From contig JAAYIF010000052.1 in the NCBI GenBank assembly GCA_012523575.1, positions 14,635 through 78,634 of the forward strand: DNA of 64,000 bases. The letters are read 5' to 3'. This DNA is from Clostridia bacterium (GTDB lineage Bacteria > Bacillota > DTU086). Shown here one piece after another: positions 1-52,071 of the stretch. Below the pieces are notes generated by a model. It was given only the letters and a program-made list of their open reading frames with translations. It was not told where the DNA came from and did not search any database. The position numbers were made by a program, and so were the translations under genes. Every line of letters starts with the position of its first letter. Positions within the stretch are counted from its first letter, which is position 1.

Positions 1-918
1 ATGAATAAAAAGAGGACTTGCCCTTCTTTTGTTTACAGAACCCGAAGGTTCAACTGAAGCACTTTTTCCAATATTCCTAAAATAATAATTGTGGGGGAGC
101 CCAAAAACGGCTCTGCTTGGATGTTCATTTATTTCTGCACCCCTTAAAAAATCCAAAACAAGAGCACCATCCCCCTCTTTTCTACCAACTTCCCGCCGAT
201 AATTTATAAATTCAATGCCAATTTTATTTAAGAGTCTAAGGGCGTTTTCACTGCTGCTTCCATCAACAACACTGACTCTCGTTTGGCTGCTGAAAGAGGT
301 ATACGGGGGAAAATCATCTTCTTCGGATAAATCCCTTATACTCAGTTCAGAAATAAAACTTCTAATGCGCTCCTCTAATTCCTCAAAAGAATTTGGTTTT
401 GACCAAACCCGCTTCCCGTCAATCTCAAGATTAGTTAAGGTAAGGGAGCCAAACCCCCTTCGAGAGCGTGAACCTGCACCCCCAAAAAGACCCAATGCTG
501 TAAGCGACTTTTTTAGATAGTCTATATCTTCATCAGTGACCTTCTTTTTACGATGTTCTCTAAACTTAAGCTCCAATGTAAATCTGTCCCCGGGCTGAAA
601 AAATTTGCGGGAGCCGTAAGTTCCATACCCGAGATATGAAAGGCCTATGGGCTTTTGGGAATCTGGAACTCCAATTTTTAAATCACTGCTTTGACTGGAA
701 AAAAGAAACTTTCCCTGACCATCTGCACTTCCAAAAAGCTCCTTTTCTTTTTCCCATATTTCTTCAACAGACCTCATAGAAGGCCAAGCCACCGCCCTAA
801 ACCAAAAACGTACCAAACCCTTAATACTCGGAACTCTGAGCTCGGGATCTGCACATTTGTCGTGCACCGCACCCCCCATAAAAAGCGGGGTCGTTATCAG
901 GTATTCAGCCCTTATCAT
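1..918 (-). CDS. cmr1: Type III-B CRISPR RAMP protein, likely Cmr1 (5' part; continues beyond window start)
   Basis: Reverse-strand translation from ATG at 916-918 (AAAGGAGG RBS upstream) gives MIRAEYLITTPLFMGGAVHDKCADPELRVPSIKGLVRFWFRAVAWPS...GLFGGAGSRSRRGFGSL. The 'SIKGxxRFWFRA' motif and the glycine-rich loop are RAMP/Cmr1 hallmarks. No in-window stop, which is why it is absent from the ORF track. Confidence 0.6.
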   Translation of the reverse strand, partial: MIRAEYLITTPLFMGGAVHDKCADPELRVPSIKGLVRFWFRAVAWPSMRSVEEIWEKEKELFGSADGQGKFLFSSQSSDLKIGVPDSQKPIGLSYLGYGTYGSRKFFQPGDRFTLELKFREHRKKKVTDEDIDYLKKSLTALGLFGGAGSRSRRGFGSLTLTNLEIDGKRVWSKPNSFEELEERIRSFISELSIRDLSEEDDFPPYTSFSSQTRVSVVDGSSSENALRLLNKIGIEFINYRREVGRKEGDGALVLDFLRGAEINEHPSRAVFGLPHNYYFRNIGKSASVEPSGSVNKRRASPLFIH

Positions 919-1211
919 TTGATAGAAGCTATCCTCCTTTAAAAAACTTAAAATTGTTCATTTCATAGTCCACTACAGAACTAAACGTTACCATAAATAG
1001 CCGTTATTTCCATCATAACTTCCTACTCTTTTATTTAGTAGGTAATTACTAAACAGCGGCATAAAAAATAAAACAGCGAAACTTGCAAGTCCTAGACTGC
1101 GTTTCCTGCGTTATTTTCTAATTTGACATATATTTCTATAATCCTCCTATTTTAATGCATTAAAGGAATATTTAAGCATTTCTGGGAAATATCCAAAAAA
1201 ATAAAGAAATA

Positions 1212-1258
1212 TCTAAAAAAACAACAAAAAAAGGAACCCCCGTTAAGGATGGTTCCTT
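1212..1258 (-). terminator. Rho-independent terminator after csx1
   Basis: Minus-strand hairpin AAGGAACC-ATCCTTAACGGG-GGTTCCTT followed by a T-run. Confidence 0.6.
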
Positions 1259-1279
1259 AAAAATTTCATGTTTTTTGTT

Positions 1280-2704
1280 TTAACTGCTATTTTCGGGCAA
1301 TTGCATACTGCCTGGCAACCTTTTTATTTCTTCAGGTAAATTACTTGTAAAAAGCAGTTTGCGAATTTCTTTTATATGGTTTCCAAGATTCCATTCTTTT
1401 ACATTCCTAACCTCTGCAAATCCCGCGTGGGCAATTAAATTCCTAATGGAGTTTATTTCAGAAAACTCGCAATGGAGTTTCTTCAGCGGCGAACCATCGG
1501 GTTCATTAGCAAAATTTTTAAAAAGTTTTTTCGCCTTTTCACGATCATCCTTATTTGTAATAGATACATCTACTCCTGAACTTTTATATAATTCCAAGAT
1601 CTTTGTAATTATAGCTTCTGCTAGGCAGATATAGGAGCTGGAATATCGTTTGTTTTCATAGTACCATTCAGCCAGTCTAAATTGAAATTCTGAATTGGAA
1701 CTTAAGCCGTGGAATCTTTTAGCAAAATCCTCTACGTAAGGCAGCAAATACCTGAAAGCCAGATATTCCGGTGTATCAATTTTCGCCTTTTTACTTTCCA
1801 GCAGATTATTTAGTTTGTCTACGTTGCTTCTTAAATTTTTCAAAGAATTTAGGTTAATTAAATCGGAAATGTTTTTTATTATTTCACTTGTTTCTTCGTC
1901 ATTAATTAATTCGGATATAAGGTAACCGTTGCCGTAATTAATGAAATCATAAGTTGCTTTAATCCATTTGGATATGGTAAAAAGCAGCTTCAAATCCACT
2001 ATTTTTGAATAACCAATTTCTCTGCGAACCTCAAGCATTCCGTAATACACGCTTTTAAGTTTTATATTTTTATATTTCAAAGTCTCAAGGAAATCAAGCA
2101 TTACAAACATAAAAATAGGAATGGACCGGAAAGAGTGAGTGATGTCCAGGTAAACTTCATCACCTTCTTTTAAATTATCTGCTATGTTCATGAAAGTTTT
2201 AAAATTCTTAATTAACTCTTCATCTTTCATTCCGTAATCCATTAAAAAACATCTGCTTCCACCCTCAGCATCAGAACGAAGTTTTTTCAAGTAAGCATCT
2301 ATAACCTCACTAACCTTTTTAAGATCATTCTCACTCACTTTGTTAGGCATACCATGTTTATAATTTTCTACTTTCGTGCCTAGATCTGTATAAAAATTAT
2401 CGTCAATATATACATCTGCATTCTGAGCAAAATAAAGATAAACCTCTTCCCACATGGATTTTTCTGTGCCCACTAGAATAACTTTATCAATCTTTAAATG
2501 AGTGGCCAGCGCTGCAGCAACAAAAGAAGTCACGTAACCTTTACCATTTTCCGAAAATCTATATTCAGTTTTTTGGTATTCCCTTATCTGAAATGGAACA
2601 TTATCCTGCATAACTGCATCGATCGACCGCTCATTTATGCCATTTGGTACTTTTTTGATAATGGGCTGACCTGCACCAATGGCAGATATAAGCACCTTAG
2701 ACAT
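1280..2704 (-). CDS. csx1: CRISPR-associated CARF–HEPN protein Csx1 (cyclic-oligoadenylate sensor/RNase family)
   Basis: 474 aa. N-terminal CARF-type 'DITHSFRSIP' loop (DxTHGFR-like). C-terminal HEPN Rx4-6H motif 'RNLIAH'. Adjacent to cmr1. Confidence 0.75.
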   Translation of the reverse strand: MSKVLISAIGAGQPIIKKVPNGINERSIDAVMQDNVPFQIREYQKTEYRFSENGKGYVTSFVAAALATHLKIDKVILVGTEKSMWEEVYLYFAQNADVYIDDNFYTDLGTKVENYKHGMPNKVSENDLKKVSEVIDAYLKKLRSDAEGGSRCFLMDYGMKDEELIKNFKTFMNIADNLKEGDEVYLDITHSFRSIPIFMFVMLDFLETLKYKNIKLKSVYYGMLEVRREIGYSKIVDLKLLFTISKWIKATYDFINYGNGYLISELINDEETSEIIKNISDLINLNSLKNLRSNVDKLNNLLESKKAKIDTPEYLAFRYLLPYVEDFAKRFHGLSSNSEFQFRLAEWYYENKRYSSSYICLAEAIITKILELYKSSGVDVSITNKDDREKAKKLFKNFANEPDGSPLKKLHCEFSEINSIRNLIAHAGFAEVRNVKEWNLGNHIKEIRKLLFTSNLPEEIKRLPGSMQLPENSS

Positions 2705-2888: not shown

Positions 2889-3455
2889 TTGACTGAGCAT
2901 ACACGTGAAGCGGTACCTGCCACTGCCGGGCGGGTTCCAAATCCACCAAAGGAGTGCAGCGGTCAGCTTTATACTGTCCAGGCTTCTGATTCCCTTTTCA
3001 AGATTGCCCGCAGATTTGGAGTTACCGTTGAAGCGATACTGGCAGCCAACCCTCAGATTGTAAACCGCGACGTCATTTTTATCGGCCAGGTTATCTGCAT
3101 ACCCTCCGGGGGACCACAACCTCCCGGTCAGTTTCGCGTTCTAACACTCAGATTTTTGACCGAGGAAGGCCAACCGCTGCCCACGGAGGGTGGAGCGGTT
3201 CAGCTCATAGAACGTGTTATTGTCCGAGCTACCTTTACTCGTCCGGTATCAAGAGCTTTCTTTTTCCTGGAACCAACTGGCACGGAAACCTGCGAATTAG
3301 CCAGCCTTATTGGAGTGGACTGCCCCAGCGCAACTACGGGAGTTGCTGAAATACTTTGGCAGGTGCAGCGGGGAACTCTTGGCCGGGTATATGTGGTTGC
3401 GTGCATTGACAGTGTATGTGCAAAATCTGATGATGTTCTTGTTGTTCGTGAGTAA
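2889..3455 (+). CDS. LysM domain protein
   Basis: TTG start with AAGGAGG RBS. LysM motif YTVQASDSLFKIARRFGVTVEAILAANP. Visibly more GC-rich than its neighbours. Confidence 0.7.
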   Translation: MTEHTREAVPATAGRVPNPPKECSGQLYTVQASDSLFKIARRFGVTVEAILAANPQIVNRDVIFIGQVICIPSGGPQPPGQFRVLTLRFLTEEGQPLPTEGGAVQLIERVIVRATFTRPVSRAFFFLEPTGTETCELASLIGVDCPSATTGVAEILWQVQRGTLGRVYVVACIDSVCAKSDDVLVVRE

Positions 3456-3506: not shown

Positions 3507-3591
3507 TTTTCCGGCTTCTAATCCTAATAGGTAGGCTCATTATCCTTTTGGCACTGAATTTCCCCTTACCAAAATGTTACAAAATATACAA

Positions 3592-5197: not shown

Positions 5198-6697
<1,500 letters not shown>

Positions 6698-8589: not shown

Positions 8590-8696
8590 AAATTAACCCT
8601 CCTATTGTTAATAAAGAATGAATAGTTCACCACTATACTTACTTATGTTTTGTTAATTATATTTCCCCGGGATCGGATATGTCAACAACTACAAAA

Positions 8697-8736
8697 AATA
8701 TTCCCCAGGCAGCAATTGCAGTCCGGGGAATATTGA
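8697..8736. promoter_or_regulatory. Palindrome in the cysK/hypothetical divergent intergenic region (candidate operator)
   Basis: AATATTCCCC-AGGCAGCAATTGCAGTCC-GGGGAATATT. Perfect 10-bp arms around a GCAATTGC core. About 108 nt upstream of the cysK start. Confidence 0.3.
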
Positions 8737-8808
8737 ATGGCAGTAACTCATTCCTCCTTTTTGCGCCTTCTGGAAAACAGAAAAAATTTTGCAAAAAAGT
8801 AAACAGCG

Positions 8809-8837
8809 TTGACAGGATAAAAGGTGAGTGTTATGTT
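8809..8837 (+). promoter_or_regulatory. Putative sigma-A-like promoter for the CorA-like gene
   Basis: TTGACA-17 nt-TATGTT. Confidence 0.3.
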
Positions 8838-8869
8838 ATGGTAAAAATATCTCAAGGGCAGGGTTTATT

Positions 8870-10234
8870 ATGGAAATTCCTAAGTTTACCTTTGCCATAA
8901 TTCCCTTCAAGTACAGCTACTCTTTTGATTCCATCGAAAAAATTGCTGCGGAAGGCGGCATATGGCAGGAAGAATGTTCTGATTACTCACGATTTTATAA
9001 ACATATTAATATCAACCTGGACAAAAGAAACCCCAACCGGAGTATTATTGAATATAAAGCTGTGCTGTCTCCGGAAAAAAGTTCTGAATTGGGTTTTTAT
9101 ATCTCTGATAAACACAAATATTTACTGACAGGCAGGAACGAAGCCGGGGAGTATTACCGTGGCACTGTATGGATTCCGGAAATAAAAATGTTTGTCTTTG
9201 ACACAAATATAGGATTTATCTCCTGTAACTTTATCTTTGAGGACAACATAGATTTTGAATCCATGTGTGAATTAATCTGTCTTATTAAAAAAATGAAGTT
9301 CCACCAGGACAATGAAAAAAATAAAACTCTTACCATGAGGCTCGAAGACCAAAGCAAGTGCATTAATCTTCTTGAAATAATTCAAAATACTCTATTGGGT
9401 GAAGGATTTAGTGTAGGTGCGGATTTGTTTTTCGACCGCAGCGATGTTAAACGCCGGGTTTCCGCAATGATGCTGAGCTCATTTCTGTTCGAGAAAGAAA
9501 TCAGTGAAAAGGAAGCTGTCATGTATCTAAGGCCGCTAAAAAGATCCCAGAACAAAACCCACGAAGTAGGTTTTTACAGGGAGGTAGATAAAGAGCGCGT
9601 TTTGCGGCCTTTTAAAAATATGTTCTGGGGATTTTCTCCCCAGGGTGTGGCCAATATCAACTATGTCGTAGAAAAAATCAGCAACGAAAAATTTATCAGA
9701 TCATTATACACCACTATTAAGAGGGAATACCTGTTCATGACCGTTTTTCTGCTAAATCAATCTTACACACTTATTGATTACTGTCACGCTTTCTCCACCG
9801 CTGCTGATAAGGCTGTTTCTCAAGAAGAGATACAGCGGATGCACAATTTTCGGCTTAAACATGTTTTTAACACCGTTTCGATCCTGGAGCATTATCGGGA
9901 ATACTATGAAAAGTTAAGGAATGCCTTGGCTATTGACAGCCTCCTTCATGAAGTGGATGAAAAGCTGGACTCCCTGTATAAGAAAAAGGAAGATCAAAGA
10001 GACGAATACCTCCGGAAAATCGAAAACAGAGTTGTAACACTTACCCTGGTTTTTACTATTCTCCTTGCAATTCTTGGAATAGTGTCCACAATGAATGCCG
10101 GGTATTATTTGTATGTGGATGTTGGCTTAAAAAATTTCCTGCTCTTATTTGTCGGCACCACTATAGCTTTAGCAGTAATTGTCTTTATAATTGTCATGAC
10201 AGTTAGAAAACTTCGCAAAACTCCTGATTTATAA
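8870..10234 (+). CDS. Hypothetical protein with CorA-like C-terminal two-TM module (divergent; 'TMN' in place of GMN)
   Basis: 455 aa from ATG 8870 (the ORF-track start at 8828 is GTG with no RBS spacing). Large soluble N-domain. C-terminus has coiled-coil–TM1(…LGIVSTMNAG)–short loop–TM2–basic tail (RKLRKTPDL), the same order as CorA (…GIYGMNF…KKKKWL). AT-rich. Confidence 0.5.
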   Translation: MEIPKFTFAIIPFKYSYSFDSIEKIAAEGGIWQEECSDYSRFYKHININLDKRNPNRSIIEYKAVLSPEKSSELGFYISDKHKYLLTGRNEAGEYYRGTVWIPEIKMFVFDTNIGFISCNFIFEDNIDFESMCELICLIKKMKFHQDNEKNKTLTMRLEDQSKCINLLEIIQNTLLGEGFSVGADLFFDRSDVKRRVSAMMLSSFLFEKEISEKEAVMYLRPLKRSQNKTHEVGFYREVDKERVLRPFKNMFWGFSPQGVANINYVVEKISNEKFIRSLYTTIKREYLFMTVFLLNQSYTLIDYCHAFSTAADKAVSQEEIQRMHNFRLKHVFNTVSILEHYREYYEKLRNALAIDSLLHEVDEKLDSLYKKKEDQRDEYLRKIENRVVTLTLVFTILLAILGIVSTMNAGYYLYVDVGLKNFLLLFVGTTIALAVIVFIIVMTVRKLRKTPDL

Positions 10235-10319
10235 AAAGAGACCCATTCCCGGTTTGGGAAAGGGTTTTTCTGAAATTGCGAAGTATTTCTTTCACTAAGA
10301 TGGTGAACAAATTTACTCT

Positions 10320-10647
10320 CCTGCTTATTTCTCCTTTTTCCCAAATAAGCAGCCTTAACATATTCTCTTTCCAGCATCTTCCACCCTTTTGTGCTTAAAA
10401 ATTTGTCCGTCTCCAGGATATGGCCACAATCTGCGTGCAGGGCCATATTGGCATTATGTTTTTTAAGAGAATAATTTCCCTTAACACGAATCTTTTCTAT
10501 TATTCCGAAAATATCCCTTACAAACAGGGGAATCATCCTCAGAGAGGCTCGTCCATCTTCAGAATCATAGGATAAAACCTCAGCGCCCTTTTCACTGCCG
10601 ATATTTGCTGCTCTCCACCCGGACAAAGTTCCCACCATCTGCCACAA
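10320..10647 (-). pseudogene. Decayed 3' fragment of a livF-like ABC ATPase gene
   Basis: Translation WQMVGTLSGW...ALHADCGHILETDKFLS...EYVKAAYLGKRRNKQ aligns with the C-terminal ~110 aa of intact LivF at 12312-13064 (WQLAGTLSGGEQQ...ALHIADWGYVLETGKIVLS...EVKAAYLGKKRQ). The Walker-B/LSGGQ region is degraded and the stop is lost. Confidence 0.55.
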
Positions 10648-10769
10648 GTACCCCTAAGCTTGTGGAAAAACACTTATATCCAAACGCTGTTTGATAGCAA
10701 AGATAGCAAAAGGCTTACATTCCTTATAGATAAGGTAAAAAAAATAGCCAGTAGCATTTTTTGAAACTG

Positions 10770-11891
10770 TCATTTTACGAATCCATATTTATTTTTTAAA
10801 TACTCTTTTCTGATATCATCTATGCTTTTTAATTTACCGTTACGAATAACGTACCAATAGTTATAACCATTAACCCTTTTAGCTCTGCCCCCTTTAGCTT
10901 TTGCTGCGCAAGAATGCATATCCATTTCTTCTCCCCTAAAAACAAGTTTTCCGTTAGCTTTCAGTCTAGCCTCCGCTGATTTATTCTTTAGAAAAAAGCT
11001 TTCTCCTTCAATGAAATAACCGTCTTGTATCATTTGTTGCATAGTTACCTTTGGAGGCTTTTCATCAAATTTTGCTTTTTCTATATCTCCTATGTGAGTG
11101 ACAGTTGATGCTAATCTTTTTTCTCCGTATTCACAATATTTTTTGTCTTTTTCAATCATAATATAGTTTCTTCCCATTCTTTTTGCGACTACACCCGTTG
11201 TCATGGTTCCAGCAAATGGATCTAAAACAAGATCTCCAACTTTTGAAGATATGGCAATAATTCTGTAAAGAAGTTCTTCCGGTTTCTGTGTGCTATGAAG
11301 TTTTTCTCCTTTATCATCTTTTAATCTCTCATTACCCTGACAAATACCTATTCTCCAAACAGAACCTAACTGCTTTCTAACACCATTTCTGTATTCTTCC
11401 TCGCTTACAGTATCCTTATTGAGTTCTTTTGCGGTTTTATAATTGAAGGTAAACTTTGATTTTTGCGACTTTGTTGCCCATATCAAGGTTTCATGACTGT
11501 TGTTTAATCTTACTCCTCTAAAGTTAGGGGTTGGATTTTTTTTATACCATATAACATCGTTAATAAGCCAAAAACCTATTCTTTGCATTATTGCTCCAAT
11601 GGTATATATACATTGCATACCTCCTATTACCCAGATAGAGCCATCCTTTTTCAAAACTCTTTTACATTCGCTGAGCCATTTTTCTGTAAAATTTTCATAA
11701 TCCTCTAATGTTGTAAACTGATTGTCCCACTCGTCAACGCAACCATCAAACTCTGTTCCTTCCACTCTATGCAAAACTCCTTCAACTCTCATCCAATAAG
11801 GAGGATCTGCGAAAATTAGATCAACACTGTCATCTGGTATTTTTTTTAATTCCACCAAAGCATCTCCATTAATAACTACATTTTTTTCCAT
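10770..11891 (-). CDS. N6-adenine DNA methyltransferase, beta class, CcrM/M.HinfI family (predicted GANTC); orphan
   Basis: 373 aa. Motif IV DLIFADPPY precedes motif I LDPFAGTMTTG. Near-colinear similarity to CcrM (KRVLKDDG(S/T)(I/L)WVIG…WxLNDIxWxKxNPxPNFxG…HETLIWA…HxTQKPE(E/A)LLYR…LDPFxGxGTTG…) including a C-terminal extension. No adjacent restriction endonuclease. Confidence 0.85.
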   Translation of the reverse strand: MEKNVVINGDALVELKKIPDDSVDLIFADPPYWMRVEGVLHRVEGTEFDGCVDEWDNQFTTLEDYENFTEKWLSECKRVLKKDGSIWVIGGMQCIYTIGAIMQRIGFWLINDVIWYKKNPTPNFRGVRLNNSHETLIWATKSQKSKFTFNYKTAKELNKDTVSEEEYRNGVRKQLGSVWRIGICQGNERLKDDKGEKLHSTQKPEELLYRIIAISSKVGDLVLDPFAGTMTTGVVAKRMGRNYIMIEKDKKYCEYGEKRLASTVTHIGDIEKAKFDEKPPKVTMQQMIQDGYFIEGESFFLKNKSAEARLKANGKLVFRGEEMDMHSCAAKAKGGRAKRVNGYNYWYVIRNGKLKSIDDIRKEYLKNKYGFVK

Positions 11892-12168
11892 ATAATATAT
11901 CTCTCTCCTTCTCTTGCTTTTCTAATAAGGTCTATTAAATTTTAATAGCAGAAACCGCCACCATAAATTTCTGTGAATTCTAGACATCTTTTGATGTTTA
12001 CAATCCTCCGCCGGGAAAGCCACTCTTTCATGGGTGGAATGAAGAGGTGGAGGATCGTAAACTGATCATGTAACGTCCCATCTCGTTTGTTGGTTTTGAC
12101 AACTACAAACATACGGAAAAAACGTGACTACGGGAAGGGCTTTTTTTGGCTCTTCCCATAGTTTTTGA

Positions 12169-12206
12169 TTTTTGCCACGAAATTTTATTTTTGCCACGAA
12201 ATTTTA
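12169..12206. repeat. Perfect 19-bp tandem direct repeat (TTTTTGCCACGAAATTTTA x2)
   Basis: Two identical adjacent copies at 12169-12187 and 12188-12206, between the livF terminator and the methyltransferase gene. Confidence 0.9.
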
Positions 12207-12221
12207 CTTAAAGAAATTCAT

Positions 12222-12290
12222 AAAAAAAACCGTCGAACCCCAAGGTTTTTGCTATACCTGAGGTCGACGACATTATTTGCAATCCAATTT
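12222..12290 (-). terminator. Terminator of the liv operon
   Basis: Minus-strand imperfect hairpin (CGTCGACC…GGTTCGACGG) followed by TTTTTTTT, immediately after the livF stop. Confidence 0.5.
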
Positions 12291-12311
12291 CGATTCAAAG
12301 GGCAACTGCTG

Positions 12312-13064
12312 CTAAATAGCTGAGGCCTGTCTTTTCTTACCCAAATATGCAGCCTTAACTTCTTCGTTCTCCAGCAGTTCCTTCCCTGTTCCGCTCAAAA
12401 CTATTTTCCCCGTTTCCAATACGTAACCCCAATCCGCTATGTGCAGGGCAGCATTGGCATTCTGTTCTATAAGCAGTATGGTTACTCCGTTGTTGTAGAT
12501 TTGCTGAATAATGGAAAATATGCTTTTAACAATTAACGGTGCCAGTCCAAGGGAAGGTTCGTCCATCATCAGAATCTTTGGTCGGGACATCAGGGCTCTT
12601 CCCACCGCCAGCATTTGCTGTTCTCCTCCGGACAAGGTTCCCGCCAGCTGCCACGACCGTTCCTTAAGTCTGGGGAATAGCTCGTATACCCACGCCAGGT
12701 CTTTTTTTATTTGCTCTTTATTGTTTCTCAAATACGCCCCGATCAGCAGGTTTTCGTAAACCGTCAGGTTTGGAAAAACCCGGCGCCCTTCAGGTACCAG
12801 AGTAATTCCCCTGGCAACGATCTCCGAGGTTTTTAACCCGGTGATGTCTTCTCCCTGGTAGGTTATTTTCCCTGATTTTACCTTCACTAATCCCATAATG
12901 GAACGAAGGGTGGTGGATTTCCCAGCCCCGTTAGCTCCAATCAAAGTGACAATGCTGCCCTCGGGCACCTCAATGGTTATCCCCTTAAGGGCTTCAATAC
13001 CGCCATAGCTCACCGTAAGGTTTTCAACTTTAAGCACCTTCTTCCACCCCCAGATAGGCCTCAA
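12312..13064 (-). CDS. livF: Branched-chain amino acid ABC transporter ATP-binding protein LivF
   Basis: 250 aa. Walker A GANGAGKST, signature LSGGEQQ. Last gene of livJHMGF. Confidence 0.9.
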   Translation of the reverse strand: MRPIWGWKKVLKVENLTVSYGGIEALKGITIEVPEGSIVTLIGANGAGKSTTLRSIMGLVKVKSGKITYQGEDITGLKTSEIVARGITLVPEGRRVFPNLTVYENLLIGAYLRNNKEQIKKDLAWVYELFPRLKERSWQLAGTLSGGEQQMLAVGRALMSRPKILMMDEPSLGLAPLIVKSIFSIIQQIYNNGVTILLIEQNANAALHIADWGYVLETGKIVLSGTGKELLENEEVKAAYLGKKRQASAI

Positions 13065-13815: not shown

Positions 13816-14885
13816 TGCACTTCACCACTCTTTACACGACGCAGTTTAAAGCGTTTGCCGAAGTTTTTTATCATTTCCCAATTTATTTCCCTGGTTCCCA
13901 TTAAACCGTCACGGTAGAACAGAACAATGATCATCAGGAGCAGGGAAAAGATAACCATTCTGAACCCGGGCCTGAACAACGGGATGGCAATGCCTCCTAT
14001 GGACAGCGGTTCGTCCAGGAAGCGAAGCCACTCCTGCCCGGCGGTGACGACGTAAGCGGAAATGATGGTGCCGGAAACACTTCCCATTCCGCCCAAGACA
14101 ATAATGAGCAGGAAGTTGTAGGTTAGTACAAACAGGAAGTTTTTGGGGTCCACGGTACCCAGCAAAGCTGCATAAAGTCCCCCTCCAATGCCTGCAAAGA
14201 AAGCGCCTATCATAAAGGACATCATTTTATGTTTGAAGAGATTTATACCCATTGCTTCGGCGGCAATTTCATCTTCCCTTATGGCCTTAAAGGCTCTGCC
14301 GTAGCTGGAATTGATGAGCAGCACAATAAAAGCAATGGAAATGATCATGGTAATATAAATCCACCAGATATTTGCCACCGGGGGAATGTTTTTAATACCC
14401 AGTGACCCGTTGGTTATGCTCTGGGCATTGGTAATAACAATTCGAATAATTTCTGAAAAGCCCAATGTAGCAATGGCCAGGTAGTCGTCCCTTAACCTCA
14501 GAACCGGTGCACCGATTAAAAAGGCAATAAAAGCGGATAAAAGCCCCCCTAAAATTAGGGCCACTATAAAGGGCATTTCAATGTCCGCAATAGCTGGATG
14601 CATGGGTTTCATGAAATACACCATGGGCCTGATCTCCACGGGAACGGTAAAAATACCCACCATGTAAGCCCCAATGGCCATAAACCCCGCATGGCCCAGG
14701 GAAAACAATCCCGTAAAACCGTTAATGAGGTTCATGGACAGGGCCAAGATGGTGTAGATGGCACACAGGTTAAGCACCCGCTGGACGTACAGGTTAAAAA
14801 ACTTGTCAGCAACTGCAATAAAAACAAAAAGTCCTGCAATGAGAATTATGGAAAGTATTTTATCTTCCTTTTTCATACTGGTCAC
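13812..14885 (-). CDS. livM: Branched-chain amino acid ABC transporter permease LivM
   Basis: 357 aa, polytopic. Overlaps livH/livG by 4 nt. Confidence 0.85.
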   Translation of the reverse strand: MTSMKKEDKILSIILIAGLFVFIAVADKFFNLYVQRVLNLCAIYTILALSMNLINGFTGLFSLGHAGFMAIGAYMVGIFTVPVEIRPMVYFMKPMHPAIADIEMPFIVALILGGLLSAFIAFLIGAPVLRLRDDYLAIATLGFSEIIRIVITNAQSITNGSLGIKNIPPVANIWWIYITMIISIAFIVLLINSSYGRAFKAIREDEIAAEAMGINLFKHKMMSFMIGAFFAGIGGGLYAALLGTVDPKNFLFVLTYNFLLIIVLGGMGSVSGTIISAYVVTAGQEWLRFLDEPLSIGGIAIPLFRPGFRMVIFSLLLMIIVLFYRDGLMGTREINWEMIKNFGKRFKLRRVKSGEVQ

Positions 14886-15829
14886 ACCTTTTCTGCAATC
14901 TTTTCACCAAGTATTCCCGTCGGTCTGAACAGTAAAATAAGAATTAAAAGGATAAAAGCAAAGGCATCACGATACCCCGTCAGGGAAGGAAGCAGGGCAA
15001 TGAGCATAATTTCACCAAAACCCAATATAAAGCCTCCCAGCACCGCTCCTGGAATATTTCCAATACCTCCCACCACCGCCGCTATGAAGCACTTAAGACC
15101 GGGCATAACGCCCATCATGGGCTGTACCTGGGGATACCTGGTTCCCCACATAATGGCACCCACGGCTGCCAGAGCGGAACCAATGGCAAAGGTAAAGGTA
15201 ATTACCCGGTTTATGTCCACACCCATAACCATGGCCGTTTCATAATCCCTGGAAACCGCCCTCATGGCCATACCCACTTTGGTTTTATTAACGATGTAAA
15301 GGAGGACGGCCAGAAAAATCAGCGTAACAACGGGTATAAAAAAGGTAACTATCTGAATGGAAACACCGCCTATTACCACGGTATCGGCAAAAAAAGCTAT
15401 TTCCGGAAAAGCCTTGGGCTTACCGGAAAATAAGTAAGTGGCCAGGTTTTCCAGAAAAAACGATGCGCCGATGGCAGAAATAAGTATAGAATTCTTGGGA
15501 GCATCCCTTAGGGGCCTGTAGGCTACACGTTCCAGAGTAATACCCAAAAGGGCAGTTGCCACAATAACCAGTATAAATGAAATGGGCCATGGCAGATGGA
15601 AAACAGCAATGCCGAAAAAGGCAAAATATGCAGCCATCATAAAAATATCTCCGTGGGCGAAGTTGATCAATCTGAGAATTCCGTAAACCATGGTGTAGCC
15701 AATGGCAATCAAAGCATACAGGCTGCCCAGGGAAACCCCGTTAGCAAAGTACTGCCATAAACTACTGCTTGAAACGGCATCAGCAGTTGCCGGAATAAAT
15801 AAAGCGTTTATAAATATATCACTTACCAC
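14882..15829 (-). CDS. livH: Branched-chain amino acid ABC transporter permease LivH
   Basis: 315 aa, polytopic permease. Confidence 0.85.
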   Translation of the reverse strand: MVSDIFINALFIPATADAVSSSSLWQYFANGVSLGSLYALIAIGYTMVYGILRLINFAHGDIFMMAAYFAFFGIAVFHLPWPISFILVIVATALLGITLERVAYRPLRDAPKNSILISAIGASFFLENLATYLFSGKPKAFPEIAFFADTVVIGGVSIQIVTFFIPVVTLIFLAVLLYIVNKTKVGMAMRAVSRDYETAMVMGVDINRVITFTFAIGSALAAVGAIMWGTRYPQVQPMMGVMPGLKCFIAAVVGGIGNIPGAVLGGFILGFGEIMLIALLPSLTGYRDAFAFILLILILLFRPTGILGEKIAEKV

Positions 15830-28840: not shown

Positions 28841-28867
28841 TCTCTGCTGCAGTTTTCTCTACTTGCG

Positions 28868-29035
28868 AACTCACGCCGGACGTCTCTAAGCAAAGCGTAA
28901 TGGGCAAAACCGGGCCGCCCCAAATTCGGCGTCCATGCCTCAGGTTGGGGGCTGGCGCGAACGTCCATGCTCGCGCCCCCCGGTTTTGCCTTACGCTTTG
29001 CCAGAGCTGTTAGCCGGCGTTCGTTAAGTCGTTTC
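28868..29035. other. GC-rich ~170-nt long imperfect inverted repeat (candidate structured ncRNA or MITE-like element)
   Basis: Arms …ACGCCGG…GCAAAGCGTAATGGGCAAAACCGGG… and …CCCGGTTTTGCCTTACGCTTTGC…CCGGCGT… pair over ~55 nt around a ~50-nt core that carries its own hairpin GGCGCGA-ACGTCCATGC-TCGCGCC. GC-rich in an AT-moderate intergenic region. The overlapping ORFs are judged spurious. Confidence 0.4.
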
Positions 29036-35828: not shown

Positions 35829-36239
35829 CTAACTGCAGATTTCCTTAATGAAGACAACTATTTCTTCCGCCCATGAAACGGCTTGTTCTGCCGTTTCTGC
35901 CTCGACGAATTGATCGTCTTCGCTCTCAAAGTACTTCCCTTCCTCTGGAGAAATGTAATATTTATCAAGGTTCCTTGCGTATTCTTTTAATTTTAAGGAA
36001 AATTCAATTCCTTCTTTTCCGGCCCTGGTGATAAGCTGAAGGAGATAGGGTTCATTGCAACCATATATACCCATTCCCCTAAGCAGACCCTTTAATGCAT
36101 ATTCTGCAGCCCTTCTGGATTTATAATAGCTCCAGACATAAAAACTTTTAATTCTGTCATTTTCAGCCAATCTCAGCATTTCTTCCGCACTGCTCATCCA
36201 GCGGTCATATACATCCCTTTTAACTAAAGATATTTTCAA
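35829..36239 (-). CDS. HEPN domain protein (solitary; no adjacent nucleotidyltransferase partner)
   Basis: Start reassigned to TTG at 36239 (GGGGAGGG RBS 7 nt upstream). HEPN-like helices (…SSAEEMLRLAENDRI…RRAAEYALKGLL…). Confidence 0.6.
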   Translation of the reverse strand: MKISLVKRDVYDRWMSSAEEMLRLAENDRIKSFYVWSYYKSRRAAEYALKGLLRGMGIYGCNEPYLLQLITRAGKEGIEFSLKLKEYARNLDKYYISPEEGKYFESEDDQFVEAETAEQAVSWAEEIVVFIKEICS

Positions 36240-36552
36240 AAATTTAACCCTCCCCAATTTTTTTACAAAATTACTTCCTACGGGAAGCGAAACAGTCAAA
36301 ACACTTTTCTTACCTCAATAATACCACTAATTTTAAAAAATAAGAAATGCTTTTATAAATCGGCAAAAAAGTAAGAAAAAAAGAGAAAAAAGAGATCTGT
36401 CCCGGAAGTTTCTTGTCTAAAGCAATATATAAAACAATTCTTAATTTTGTGCTTACAGTAAATTTCTGTTAGCATATCAGCAATGATAATTATTTTCTTT
36501 TGGTATCCTGGAATACCAAAAATTTTCAAAATAAAAAAGGAGGTTTTGCTAA

Positions 36553-51890: not shown

Positions 51891-52071
51891 ATTAAACCCT
51901 CCATAAAAATTAAGCCTTCCGGACCAAAGGGTACGGAAGGCATAGCATCGACAGACCGTCTAACCTCCGTCTCGGTCCTCACAGGATCCAAGCGGAAAAA
52001 AATAGGATATTTAAATGTTAACACAGGAACGGTCCCCTGTCCATAAAAGCTCCTTTATATTTCACTCACTT

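What the first reader, a model, noticed from the sequence alone, without database searches (positions are those of the whole stretch)
8600..12310. AT-rich accessory island downstream of the liv operon with a diverged duplicate of the livF 3' end
Between cysK and the intact liv operon lies a distinctly AT-rich block. It contains an unknown CorA-like membrane protein and a degraded copy of the last ~110 codons of livF at 10320-10647, same orientation, 1.7 kb downstream of the intact livF. It also holds an orphan CcrM-family methyltransferase and a perfect 19-bp tandem repeat. A decayed target-gene 3' end at one boundary is the usual footprint of an integrative element that inserted into the 3' end of a gene and brought a replacement end. 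No integrase remains, so this looks like an old, eroded insertion that left cargo behind.
Basis: partly seen in the sequence, partly recalled or inferred. Interest (0 to 1): 0.65.

Follow-up and report, generated by a model that had tools for sequence, protein, structure and literature searches.

The report
Orphan methylase insertion beside livF relic
The gap between the liv amino-acid transporter operon and cysK is a variable slot. In this genome it holds a horizontally acquired stand-alone DNA methylase, a decayed copy of the last ~125 codons of livF, and a CorA-like membrane protein gene; this is an ordinary recombination scar, not a new kind of element.

Summary
Window 8736-12230 is AT-rich (GC 0.37, against 0.51 and 0.46 in the flanks). 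It contains four things:
- a CorA-like gene, X (8870-10234, + strand);
- a frameshifted livF 3' relic (about 10320-10700, - strand);
- an intact CcrM/M.HinfI-type methyltransferase with no restriction partner (10770-11891, - strand);
- two exact copies of a 19-bp unit (12168-12205).

A sister lineage (L178/L089, livF 94% identical) shares both flanks at 84-90% nt identity but carries a CRISPR array in this slot, so the block is accessory.

The "integrative element that brought a replacement livF end" reading is not supported.
- The intact livF 3' half and its terminator are colinear with relatives that lack the methylase.
- livF shows no break in identity or GC content.
- No recombinase remnant was found.
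- The relic lies in the middle of the block, not at its edge.

The relic comes from this lineage's own livF. It has decayed neutrally (private changes 30/31/29 at codon positions 1/2/3) since about the split from the sister lineage.

The best reading is a recombination-driven insertion of a foreign methylase cassette (GC3 0.26) with a long target duplication, as described for restriction-modification genes. This is ordinary and of low to moderate interest.

The parts
8736..12230 (.). Variable (accessory) block between the native livF terminator and the conserved cysK promoter region; GC 0.369.
   Evidence: blastn of L178 against the window: homology stops at window 12231 on one side and 8735 on the other. 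L178 carries a CRISPR array in this slot instead.
8809..8837 (+). Promoter-like site for X (TTGACA, 17-nt spacer, TATGTT, with a TG upstream of the -10 element).
   Evidence: Consensus scan. Inferred, not tested.
8870..10234 (+). Gene X: a 454-aa protein with an N-terminal soluble domain, a long stalk helix and two C-terminal transmembrane helices. It is a divergent member of the CorA superfamily.
   Evidence: PADLOC CorA-like model, E = 1.6e-11, over residues 273-438. 39 of 41 relatives hit the same model and 6 of 41 hit Pfam CorA. A family profile matches PDB CorA transmembrane regions at E = 0.003. The AF2 model has pLDDT 86.5, and its best Foldseek hits are CorA at E = 7e-3. Only 6 close homologues were found in 5.8 billion proteins, plus 289 distant cluster representatives.
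10246..10260 (.). Hairpin followed by T-runs on both strands, between the X stop codon and the end of the livF relic. Terminator-like.
   Evidence: and direct reading of the sequence.
10320..10700 (-). livF' pseudogene: a decayed copy of livF codons ~122-247. The region after the signature motif and the Walker B region are thrown out of frame.
   Evidence: An NJ tree places it with window+L089 in 278 of 300 bootstraps. Private changes fall 30/31/29 at codon positions 1/2/3; GC->AT changes number 49 against 24 AT->GC.
10693..10710 (.). 9-bp tandem repeat (GATAGCAAA, two copies) at the promoter-proximal edge of the relic's homology.
   Evidence: TRF. Significance unknown.
10770..11891 (-). Intact stand-alone beta-class N6-adenine DNA methyltransferase of the CcrM/M.HinfI family (DPPY motif, then FxGxG, then a C-terminal RAMA domain). 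Horizontally acquired.
   Evidence: Pfam. PDB 6pbd, E = 1e-83. PADLOC MTase_II and oMTase models. GC 0.342 and GC3 0.259. The closest homologue outside this organism is 75% identical and solitary in a 35% GC genome. A 71% identical homologue sits next to R.HinfI.
11892..12131 (.). Non-coding spacer upstream of the methylase. The 56-aa ORF at 11942-12112 has no RBS and no homologue. The palindrome CTATTAAA-T-TTTAATAG lies just upstream of the methylase RBS.
12132..12157 (.). GC-rich hairpin (10 bp stem), terminator-like.
12168..12205 (.). Two exact tandem copies of the 19-bp unit ATTTTTGCCACGAAATTTT, at the livF-proximal edge of the inserted DNA.
   Evidence: Found only here and in the same-strain contig L180.
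12231..12279 (-). Native livF terminator, shared with L089/L178/L179.
   Evidence: 84% identity to L178 2471-2520; sequences compared.
12312..13064 (-). Intact livF. Positions 12320-12700 are the functional counterpart of the relic.

Best explanation
The space between the liv operon and cysK is a recombination-prone variable slot. In this lineage, a 1.6-kb piece of foreign low-GC DNA (10701-12230) became joined to the chromosome by recombination without its own recombinase. [quoted passage not shown] The foreign piece carries a solitary M.HinfI/CcrM-type adenine methyltransferase with its upstream spacer, a hairpin and the 19-bp repeats.

The event left about 380 bp of the livF 3' end in two direct copies. 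The copy attached to the operon stayed under selection as part of the working livF. The distal copy (10320-10700) lost its function at once and has drifted neutrally, with an AT bias, for about as long as this lineage has been separate from the L089/L178 lineage.

The methylase is intact and probably active. It most likely methylates GANTC, without a restriction partner, so it acts as an orphan epigenetic or anti-restriction enzyme.

Gene X (CorA-like) is a separate transcription unit that shares the slot.

What is shown: the composition, the homologies, the neutral decay, the flank conservation and the absence of a restriction or recombinase gene. What is inferred: the recombination mechanism, the order of events and GANTC specificity.
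For: - Direct repeats of the livF 3' end, spaced 2.0 kb apart, flank the methylase.
- The insert between them has GC 0.35, and the methylase GC3 of 0.259 is the lowest of 48 genes.
- Only the methylase coding sequence is homologous to its nearest relatives, which sit in 35% GC genomes.
- The relic groups with the window+L089 livF clade in 278 of 300 bootstraps.
- Its private changes are spread evenly over codon positions (30/31/29), whereas the two functional copies differ at 5/3/46. At informative sites it mostly keeps the ancestral state. It therefore became a pseudogene at about the lineage split and was never a working gene in a distant donor.
- The intact livF plus terminator is colinear with L089/L178, with no break.
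- No recombinase was found.
- Stretches of 99-100% identity inside livH/livM between the window and L089 show ongoing homologous exchange between the two lineages. Both lineages occur in the same sample.
- Insertion of R-M genes with target duplications of 46-423 bp and no other mobility gene is a documented pattern (PMC2853133).
- A methylase 71% identical to this one is paired with R.HinfI (PF09520) in another genome.
Against: - No genome with an 'empty' or intermediate site (livF-X-cysK without the methylase) was found. The only syntenic relative has a CRISPR array in the slot, so the ancestral state and the order of events are not fixed.
- The sequences after the two stop positions are not detectably similar (p = 0.37), so the extent of the duplication beyond the coding region is unknown.
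- The native-type terminator follows the intact copy rather than the relic. That does not fit a simple in-place target duplication unless the terminator was part of the duplicated target and has since decayed.
- The published long-target-duplication cases carry both R and M genes; here only M is present.
- GANTC is not depleted in the window (129 observed, 128 expected). This says nothing for or against methylase activity.
Confidence: 0.5

Rival explanations
1. The relic is a passenger. A block [livF 3' part - X - cysK side] was imported from a close relative in which X lies directly downstream of livF. The import was anchored by homology on the cysK side and joined illegitimately next to a methylase that was already resident. 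On this reading the relic was never duplicated in place; it is the truncated end of the donor's livF.
For: - The relic, the bidirectional terminator-like hairpin, X, its promoter-like site and the divergent cysK promoter form a tidy, native-looking arrangement.
- The native-type terminator follows the intact livF, not the relic.
- The relic is slightly closer to L089/L178 livF (66-70% nt identity) than to the window's own livF (63-68%).
- Mosaic 99-100% identity patches show that DNA is exchanged between the lineages.
Against: - The extra similarity to L089 comes from retained ancestral states, not shared derived ones: 1 shared with L089 against 2 shared with the window.
- No relative with livF directly followed by X was found. 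In other genomes, X homologues lie between a SASP gene and a sigma-factor gene.
Confidence: 0.22
2. A site-specific integrative element (an integrase-bearing island or prophage) integrated into the 3' part of livF and supplied a replacement end. The displaced native end is the relic, and the element later eroded down to the methylase.
For: - Direct repeats of a gene's 3' end around foreign, AT-rich DNA are the classic footprint of such elements (general knowledge, for example e14 and phage 21 at icd).
- The relic keeps mostly ancestral states, as a displaced native end would.
- In another genome a 71% identical methylase lies beside a block of small genes that looks mobile, with HTH_17 and HTH_36 domains.
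Against: - The intact 3' half and its terminator are shared with L089/L178/L179, which lack the methylase. There is no identity or GC discontinuity at the presumed crossover.
- No recombinase remnant was found.
- Only 1.6 kb lies between the copies.
- There is no exact core repeat.
- The X gene lies outside the repeats but inside the variable block.
Confidence: 0.1
3. A local tandem duplication of a segment starting inside livF, followed by deletion or replacement of most of the second copy. On this reading the methylase was already downstream of livF before the duplication.
For: The two copies are direct, in the same orientation and about 2.0 kb apart, as in a tandem duplication of a 2-kb unit.
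Against: - Nothing after the relic resembles the terminator, spacer or methylase that follow the intact copy.
- It needs at least one extra step compared with the other models.
Confidence: 0.08
4. The similarity is due to chance, or the fragment derives from an unrelated ABC ATPase paralogue or from a foreign livF.
For: None beyond the fragment's low GC.
Against: - E = 2e-20 with colinear nucleotide homology.
- The fragment nests inside the window+L089 livF clade, to the exclusion of relatives at 82-83% identity.
- The low GC is explained by AT-biased neutral decay.
Confidence: 0.01

Closest known systems
Insertion of restriction-modification genes with long target duplication (Nobusato et al. 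2000; Furuta, Abe & Kobayashi 2010, PMC2853133)
   Same: A small insert carrying an R-M-type gene. There is no transposase or integrase. The insert is flanked by long direct repeats (here about 380 bp; published cases range from 46 to 423 bp). The repeated sequence is single-copy in a related genome. The insert's GC is below the genome average.
   Different: Only the methylase is present and there is no restriction gene. The repeats have diverged to 63-73% identity, whereas published cases are above 90%. The related genome does not show a clean empty site; it has a CRISPR array instead. A further gene (X) lies beyond the distal repeat inside the variable block.
Integrative elements that carry a replacement 3' end of their target gene (e14 and phage 21 at icd; tRNA-gene islands). 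Comparison from general knowledge.
   Same: Direct duplication of a gene's 3' end around foreign DNA. The proximal copy keeps the gene intact while the distal copy decays.
   Different: There is no recombinase and no conserved core. The proximal copy is the native one, judged by comparison with relatives. The insert is only 1.6 kb.
CcrM / M.HinfI family of beta-class N6-adenine methyltransferases (GANTC)
   Same: The same domain order, with DPPY before FxGxG, and a C-terminal RAMA domain. It aligns full length to CcrM structure 6pbd (E = 1e-83) and is about 41% identical to alphaproteobacterial CcrM. Homologues 71% identical are paired with R.HinfI. It is solitary, as CcrM is.
   Different: It falls below the NCBIfam CcrM equivalog cutoff (388 bits against 830). 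The host is a Clostridia-class MAG, not an alphaproteobacterium. There is no evidence of a cell-cycle role. Its specificity has not been measured.
CRISPR type III-associated CorA effectors (Chi et al. 2023, PMC10600005)
   Same: Similar length (454 aa against profiles of about 450 aa). Both have an N-terminal soluble domain and a C-terminal region of about 170 aa with CorA-type transmembrane helices. In both, that C-terminal region is the only part that matches CorA. A type III-B locus (Cmr1, Csx1) lies about 6 kb away in the window.
   Different: X is not adjacent to cas genes, and no NrN or SAM-AMP lyase gene lies in the island or immediately beside X. X homologues in three other genomes have no cas genes within 10 kb. 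The GMN motif is replaced by TMN, NMS, NMN or NLN.

Membership tests
Site-specific integrative element with a replacement gene end | A tyrosine or serine recombinase gene, or a remnant of one, inside the element | tested here: not met
   No Pfam, PHROGs or NCBIfam hit other than the methylase and CorA-like models. This covers every ORF of 20 aa or more between the methylase and livF (11892-12311) and the larger ORFs of the block. The small ORFs of 10235-10770 were not scanned.
Site-specific integrative element with a replacement gene end | The gene-proximal copy is element-derived, shown by a discontinuity against relatives that lack the element | tested here: not met
   The identity profile against L089 is 82-89% through the livF 3' half, within the range of the rest of the operon. 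Homology continues through the terminator. GC of the two livF halves is 0.479 and 0.475.
Site-specific integrative element with a replacement gene end | attL and attR share an exact core sequence | tested here: inconclusive
   The longest repeat segments are 73-82% identical with no long exact core. With about 35% divergence, any core could have been erased.
R-M insertion with long target duplication | Direct repeats longer than 30 bp flank an insert shorter than 20 kb that has no mobility genes | tested here: met
   Repeats of about 380 bp and a 1.6-kb insert. No mobility genes.
R-M insertion with long target duplication | The repeat is single-copy in a related genome that lacks the insert | tested here: met
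   L178, L179 and L089 each have one livF 3' end and no methylase.
R-M insertion with long target duplication | The insert contains both R and M genes (criterion of PMC2853133) | tested here: not met
   Only M is present. tblastn with R.HinfI from L174 finds no remnant.
R-M insertion with long target duplication | Sequence outside both repeats is colinear with the relative (a clean empty site) | tested here: not met
   Beyond the distal repeat lies X, which is absent from L178. L178 has a CRISPR array there instead.
CcrM / M.HinfI beta-class N6-adenine methyltransferase | N6_N4_Mtase domain with DPPY before FxGxG, plus a C-terminal RAMA/CcrM domain | tested here: met
   PF01555 at E = 4.7e-63 and PF18755 at E = 3.6e-10. 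The motifs FADPPYW and DPFAGTMTT are in the translation. 6pbd aligns to residues 5-363.
CcrM / M.HinfI beta-class N6-adenine methyltransferase | Orthology to Caulobacter CcrM (NCBIfam equivalog cutoff) | tested here: not met
   NF050803 scores 388 bits against a cutoff of 830.
CcrM / M.HinfI beta-class N6-adenine methyltransferase | GANTC m6A specificity | not testable with these tools
   Inferred only. A 71% identical homologue is followed by a PF09520 HinfI endonuclease.
CorA superfamily / CRISPR-associated CorA | C-terminal module of about 170 aa with two transmembrane helices, similar to CorA | tested here: met
   PADLOC CorA-like model at E = 1.6e-11 over residues 273-438. A family profile matches PDB CorA at E = 0.003. 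The model has helices 355-418 and 420-449.
CorA superfamily / CRISPR-associated CorA | Pfam CorA gathering score and the GMN motif | tested here: not met
   No PF01544 hit for X. The motif position reads STMN, SNMS, SNMN or SNLN in the family.
CorA superfamily / CRISPR-associated CorA | Whole-chain fold match to CorA | tested here: inconclusive
CorA superfamily / CRISPR-associated CorA | Genomic association with type III cas genes and an NrN or SAM-AMP lyase gene | tested here: not met
   Cmr1 and Csx1 are about 6 kb away, with housekeeping genes in between. X homologues in L081, L086 and L088 have no cas genes within 10 kb.

The most novel reading that the evidence does not exclude
Gene X may be a stand-alone CorA-type membrane effector that works with the type III-B CRISPR system at the left edge of the window (Cmr1, Csx1). 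It sits in exactly the slot where the sister lineage keeps its CRISPR array. On this reading the livF-cysK gap is a defence-gene exchange site where a CRISPR array, an orphan methylase and a CorA-like effector replace one another.
Probability: 0.1. Interest if true: 0.5.

Novelty: new member of a known kind. Interest (0 to 1): 0.25.

Why it matters
The locus is a clean, datable example of how a solitary DNA methyltransferase gene enters a Clostridia chromosome without any transposase or integrase. The neutrally decaying livF relic works as a built-in clock: the event is about as old as the split from the sister lineage. It also shows that one intergenic slot can hold a CRISPR array in one lineage and a methylase plus a CorA-like gene in the next. 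That is useful for people mapping defence-gene hot spots. It does not reveal a new mechanism or a new class of element.

Tried and rejected
- Exact-protein look-ups of livF and the methylase (window starts) found nothing on record.
- The GTDB species scan with livF gave relatives at 83% identity or less, and their downstream genes are not syntenic. The 86% relative L181 is also not syntenic. The ancestral state of the slot therefore could not be polarised.
- Searches of phage, plasmid and viral-contig collections with the methylase found no close relative: best full-length identity about 41% in plasmids, 27-37% over 68-82% of the query in phages, and none in viral contigs.
- The flanks of the nearest methylase homologues share nothing with the window apart from the coding sequence.
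- A search for R.HinfI or its 87-aa neighbour in the window found only chance hits.
- GANTC is not depleted.
- Rfam found nothing inside the block.
- The sequences after the two stop positions are not significantly similar.
- The 19-mer has no match in viral contigs or in any other fetched locus.
- A codon-usage likelihood score did not discriminate foreign genes; GC3 did.
- X is unrelated to the Csx1 gene at 1280-2704.

Full report
**What is there**

On the minus strand the window reads: livJ-livH-livM-livG-livF (17087-12312), the livF terminator (12279-12231), and then a 3.5-kb AT-rich block. After the block come cysK (8589-7660), a LarE-like gene, metY and metX.

GC is 0.34-0.41 inside the block and 0.45-0.56 outside it. 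With the boundaries refined below (8736-12230), GC is 0.369 against 0.512 and 0.464 in the flanks.

Reading the block from livF towards cysK:
- two exact tandem copies of ATTTTTGCCACGAAATTTT (12168-12205);
- a GC-rich hairpin (12132-12157);
- a 240-bp spacer whose 56-aa ORF has no RBS and no homologue;
- a 373-aa methyltransferase (11891-10770);
- 70 bp of spacer, then a decayed copy of the livF 3' end (about 10700-10320);
- a terminator-like hairpin (10246-10260);
- on the opposite strand, a 454-aa gene X (8870-10234) with its own promoter-like site (8809-8837).

**The livF relic is real**

The ORF that spans it aligns to the C-terminal half of livF with 43% identity over 113 residues, E = 2e-20.

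At the nucleotide level the homology is colinear from livF codon ~122 to codon ~247. Identity is 63-66%. There are +1, -1, -2 and -1 frameshifts and two 3-nt deletions. These put the region after the signature motif and the Walker B region out of frame.

Homology does not extend beyond the stop position (p = 0.37 against shuffles) or upstream of codon ~122. Two independent metagenome contigs from another sample, L173 and L180, reproduce both junctions at 99.9% identity.

**Whose livF is it, and how old is it?**

The relic nests with the livF of the window and of its closest relative L089 in 278 of 300 NJ bootstraps. This excludes the relatives at 82-83% identity. It is therefore neither a foreign livF nor an old paralogue.

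Changes private to the relic fall 30/31/29 on codon positions 1/2/3. The two functional genes differ at 5/3/46. GC->AT changes outnumber AT->GC changes 49 to 24. The relic has therefore evolved neutrally, with an AT bias, along essentially its whole private branch, and that explains its lower GC.

At sites where the window and L089 differ, the relic mostly keeps the outgroup state. Shared derived states number 2 with the window and 1 with L089. This places its origin at about the split of the two lineages.

**Is the block accessory?**

Yes. The first scans gave only relatives whose genes downstream of livF differ. A final protein search then found a 36.5-kb contig, L178, with livF 94% identical to the window's. 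It belongs to the same lineage as L089 and L179.

L178 matches the window in two stretches:
- window 14717-12313 at 88.6% and 12279-12231 (the terminator) at 84%;
- window 8735-3821 (cysK upstream palindrome and promoter, cysK, larE-like, metY, metX) at 86-90%.

Between these stretches L178 has a CRISPR leader, 26 repeats, a 1.85-kb phage-like insert and two more repeats. Neither X nor the methylase leaves any trace in L178, L089, L001 or L002. The gap between livF and cysK is therefore a variable slot.

**The methylase**

It has the N6_N4_Mtase and RAMA domains. It aligns full length to the CcrM structure 6pbd at E = 1e-83 and is about 41% identical to alphaproteobacterial CcrM. It scores below the NCBIfam CcrM equivalog cutoff.

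Its GC3 of 0.259 is the lowest of 48 genes in the window, which otherwise range from 0.32 to 0.61. The nearest homologue outside this organism is 75% identical, solitary, and sits in a 35% GC genome. Only the coding sequence is shared.

A 71% identical homologue is followed by an 87-aa gene and an R.HinfI-family endonuclease. GANTC specificity is therefore a reasonable inference. The window holds no remnant of such an endonuclease, and GANTC is not depleted. The enzyme is thus an orphan at this locus.

**Gene X**

Pfam finds nothing convincing. PADLOC's CorA-like model matches residues 273-438 at E = 1.6e-11.

The full HMMER scan found 289 distant cluster representatives of similar length. Of 41 aligned members, 39 hit the same PADLOC model and 6 hit Pfam CorA. 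A family profile hits the transmembrane region of solved CorA structures at E = 0.003.

This architecture is the one described for CRISPR type III-associated CorA effectors (PMC10600005). However, X homologues at 60-65% identity in three other genomes sit between a SASP gene and a sigma-factor gene, with no cas genes within 10 kb.

**How the arrangement arose**

It predicts that the intact 3' half is foreign. It is not:
- Identity to L089 stays at 82-89% through the 3' half, within the range of the rest of the operon.
- Homology continues through the terminator.
- The two halves of livF have the same GC.

In addition, no recombinase remnant exists, there is no exact core repeat, and the relic is in the middle of the block, not at its edge.

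The pattern is a small insert with an R-M-type gene, no mobility gene, long direct repeats of a sequence that is single-copy in a relative, and low insert GC. This matches "insertion with long target duplication", described for R-M genes (PMC2853133). It could also arise by homology-facilitated illegitimate recombination. That is plausible here for two reasons: stretches of 99-100% identity inside livH/livM show recent exchange with the L089 lineage, and both lineages live in the same sample.

A variant model treats the relic as the truncated end of a donor block [livF'-X]. It cannot be excluded, because the native-type terminator follows the intact copy and the relic-terminator-X-promoter arrangement looks native. 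No intermediate genome was found to decide between the two.

**Verdict**

This is a new member of a known kind, of low to moderate interest.

Noticed in passing
window 1-2704 (- strand): A type III-B/C CRISPR-Cas locus starts at the left edge of the window. An open frame at 1-957 running off the edge matches Cmr1 (PADLOC, E = 1.3e-25). ORF 1280-2704 is a Csx1/Csm6 CARF-HEPN effector (E = 1.9e-125). That ORF is AT-rich (GC 0.34) and has no Pfam hit.
   Followed up: partly
window ~2745-2770 and ~3512-3537 (- strand): Two degenerate copies of the CRISPR repeat found in L089/L178 (GTTTTCAGCCTACCTATGAGGAATTGAAAT) flank the LysM-domain gene at 2889-3455. They score 43 and 29, against a maximum of 26 in shuffles. 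This looks like the remnant of an array next to csx1.
   Followed up: partly
L178 2521-6354 (also L089 3700-4430): In the sister lineage the livF-cysK slot holds a CRISPR leader and 28 repeats. A 1.85-kb insert encoding a Phage_min_cap2-domain protein and small ORFs interrupts the array after repeat 26.
   Followed up: partly
window 8697-8734: Palindrome AATATTCCCCAGGCAGCAA/TTGCAGTCCGGGGAATATT, just upstream of a perfect sigma-70-type cysK promoter (8685-8656, - strand). It is conserved in L178, so it is probably an operator for a cysteine-metabolism regulator.
   Followed up: partly
window 14200-15020 (livM/livH): Stretches of 97-100% nt identity to L089 are embedded in an operon that is otherwise 82-93% identical. 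This is a mosaic pattern typical of recent homologous recombination between the two lineages.
   Followed up: partly
window 10105-10647 (- strand): A 180-codon ORF stays open across the livF relic despite the frameshifts. It continues 70 codons past the old stop position and runs antisense into the 3' end of X. It is probably a chance ORF and was not called as a gene in the JGI contig L173.
   Followed up: partly
L178 8436-9438: Relative to the window, L178 has about 1 kb extra between the larE-like gene and metY. The extra DNA holds short fragments of a Cys_Met_Meta_PP gene and an ABC permease gene. This is another small rearrangement scar in the same neighbourhood.
   Followed up: no
window 6586-6697 (-), 28867-29026 (-), 51963-52043 (-): Rfam hits: a SAM riboswitch upstream of metY-metX, a TwoAYGGAY RNA, and a pan motif.
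   Followed up: no
window 35829-36299 (- strand): An AT-rich (GC 0.39) HEPN-domain protein gene, possibly half of a HEPN/MNT toxin-antitoxin pair.
   Followed up: no
L174 6001-8493: A complete HinfI-type R-M system (M, an 87-aa ORF, R.HinfI). Its methylase is 71% identical to the window's. It sits next to a block of small genes with HTH_17 and HTH_36 domains that looks like a mobile element.
   Followed up: partly
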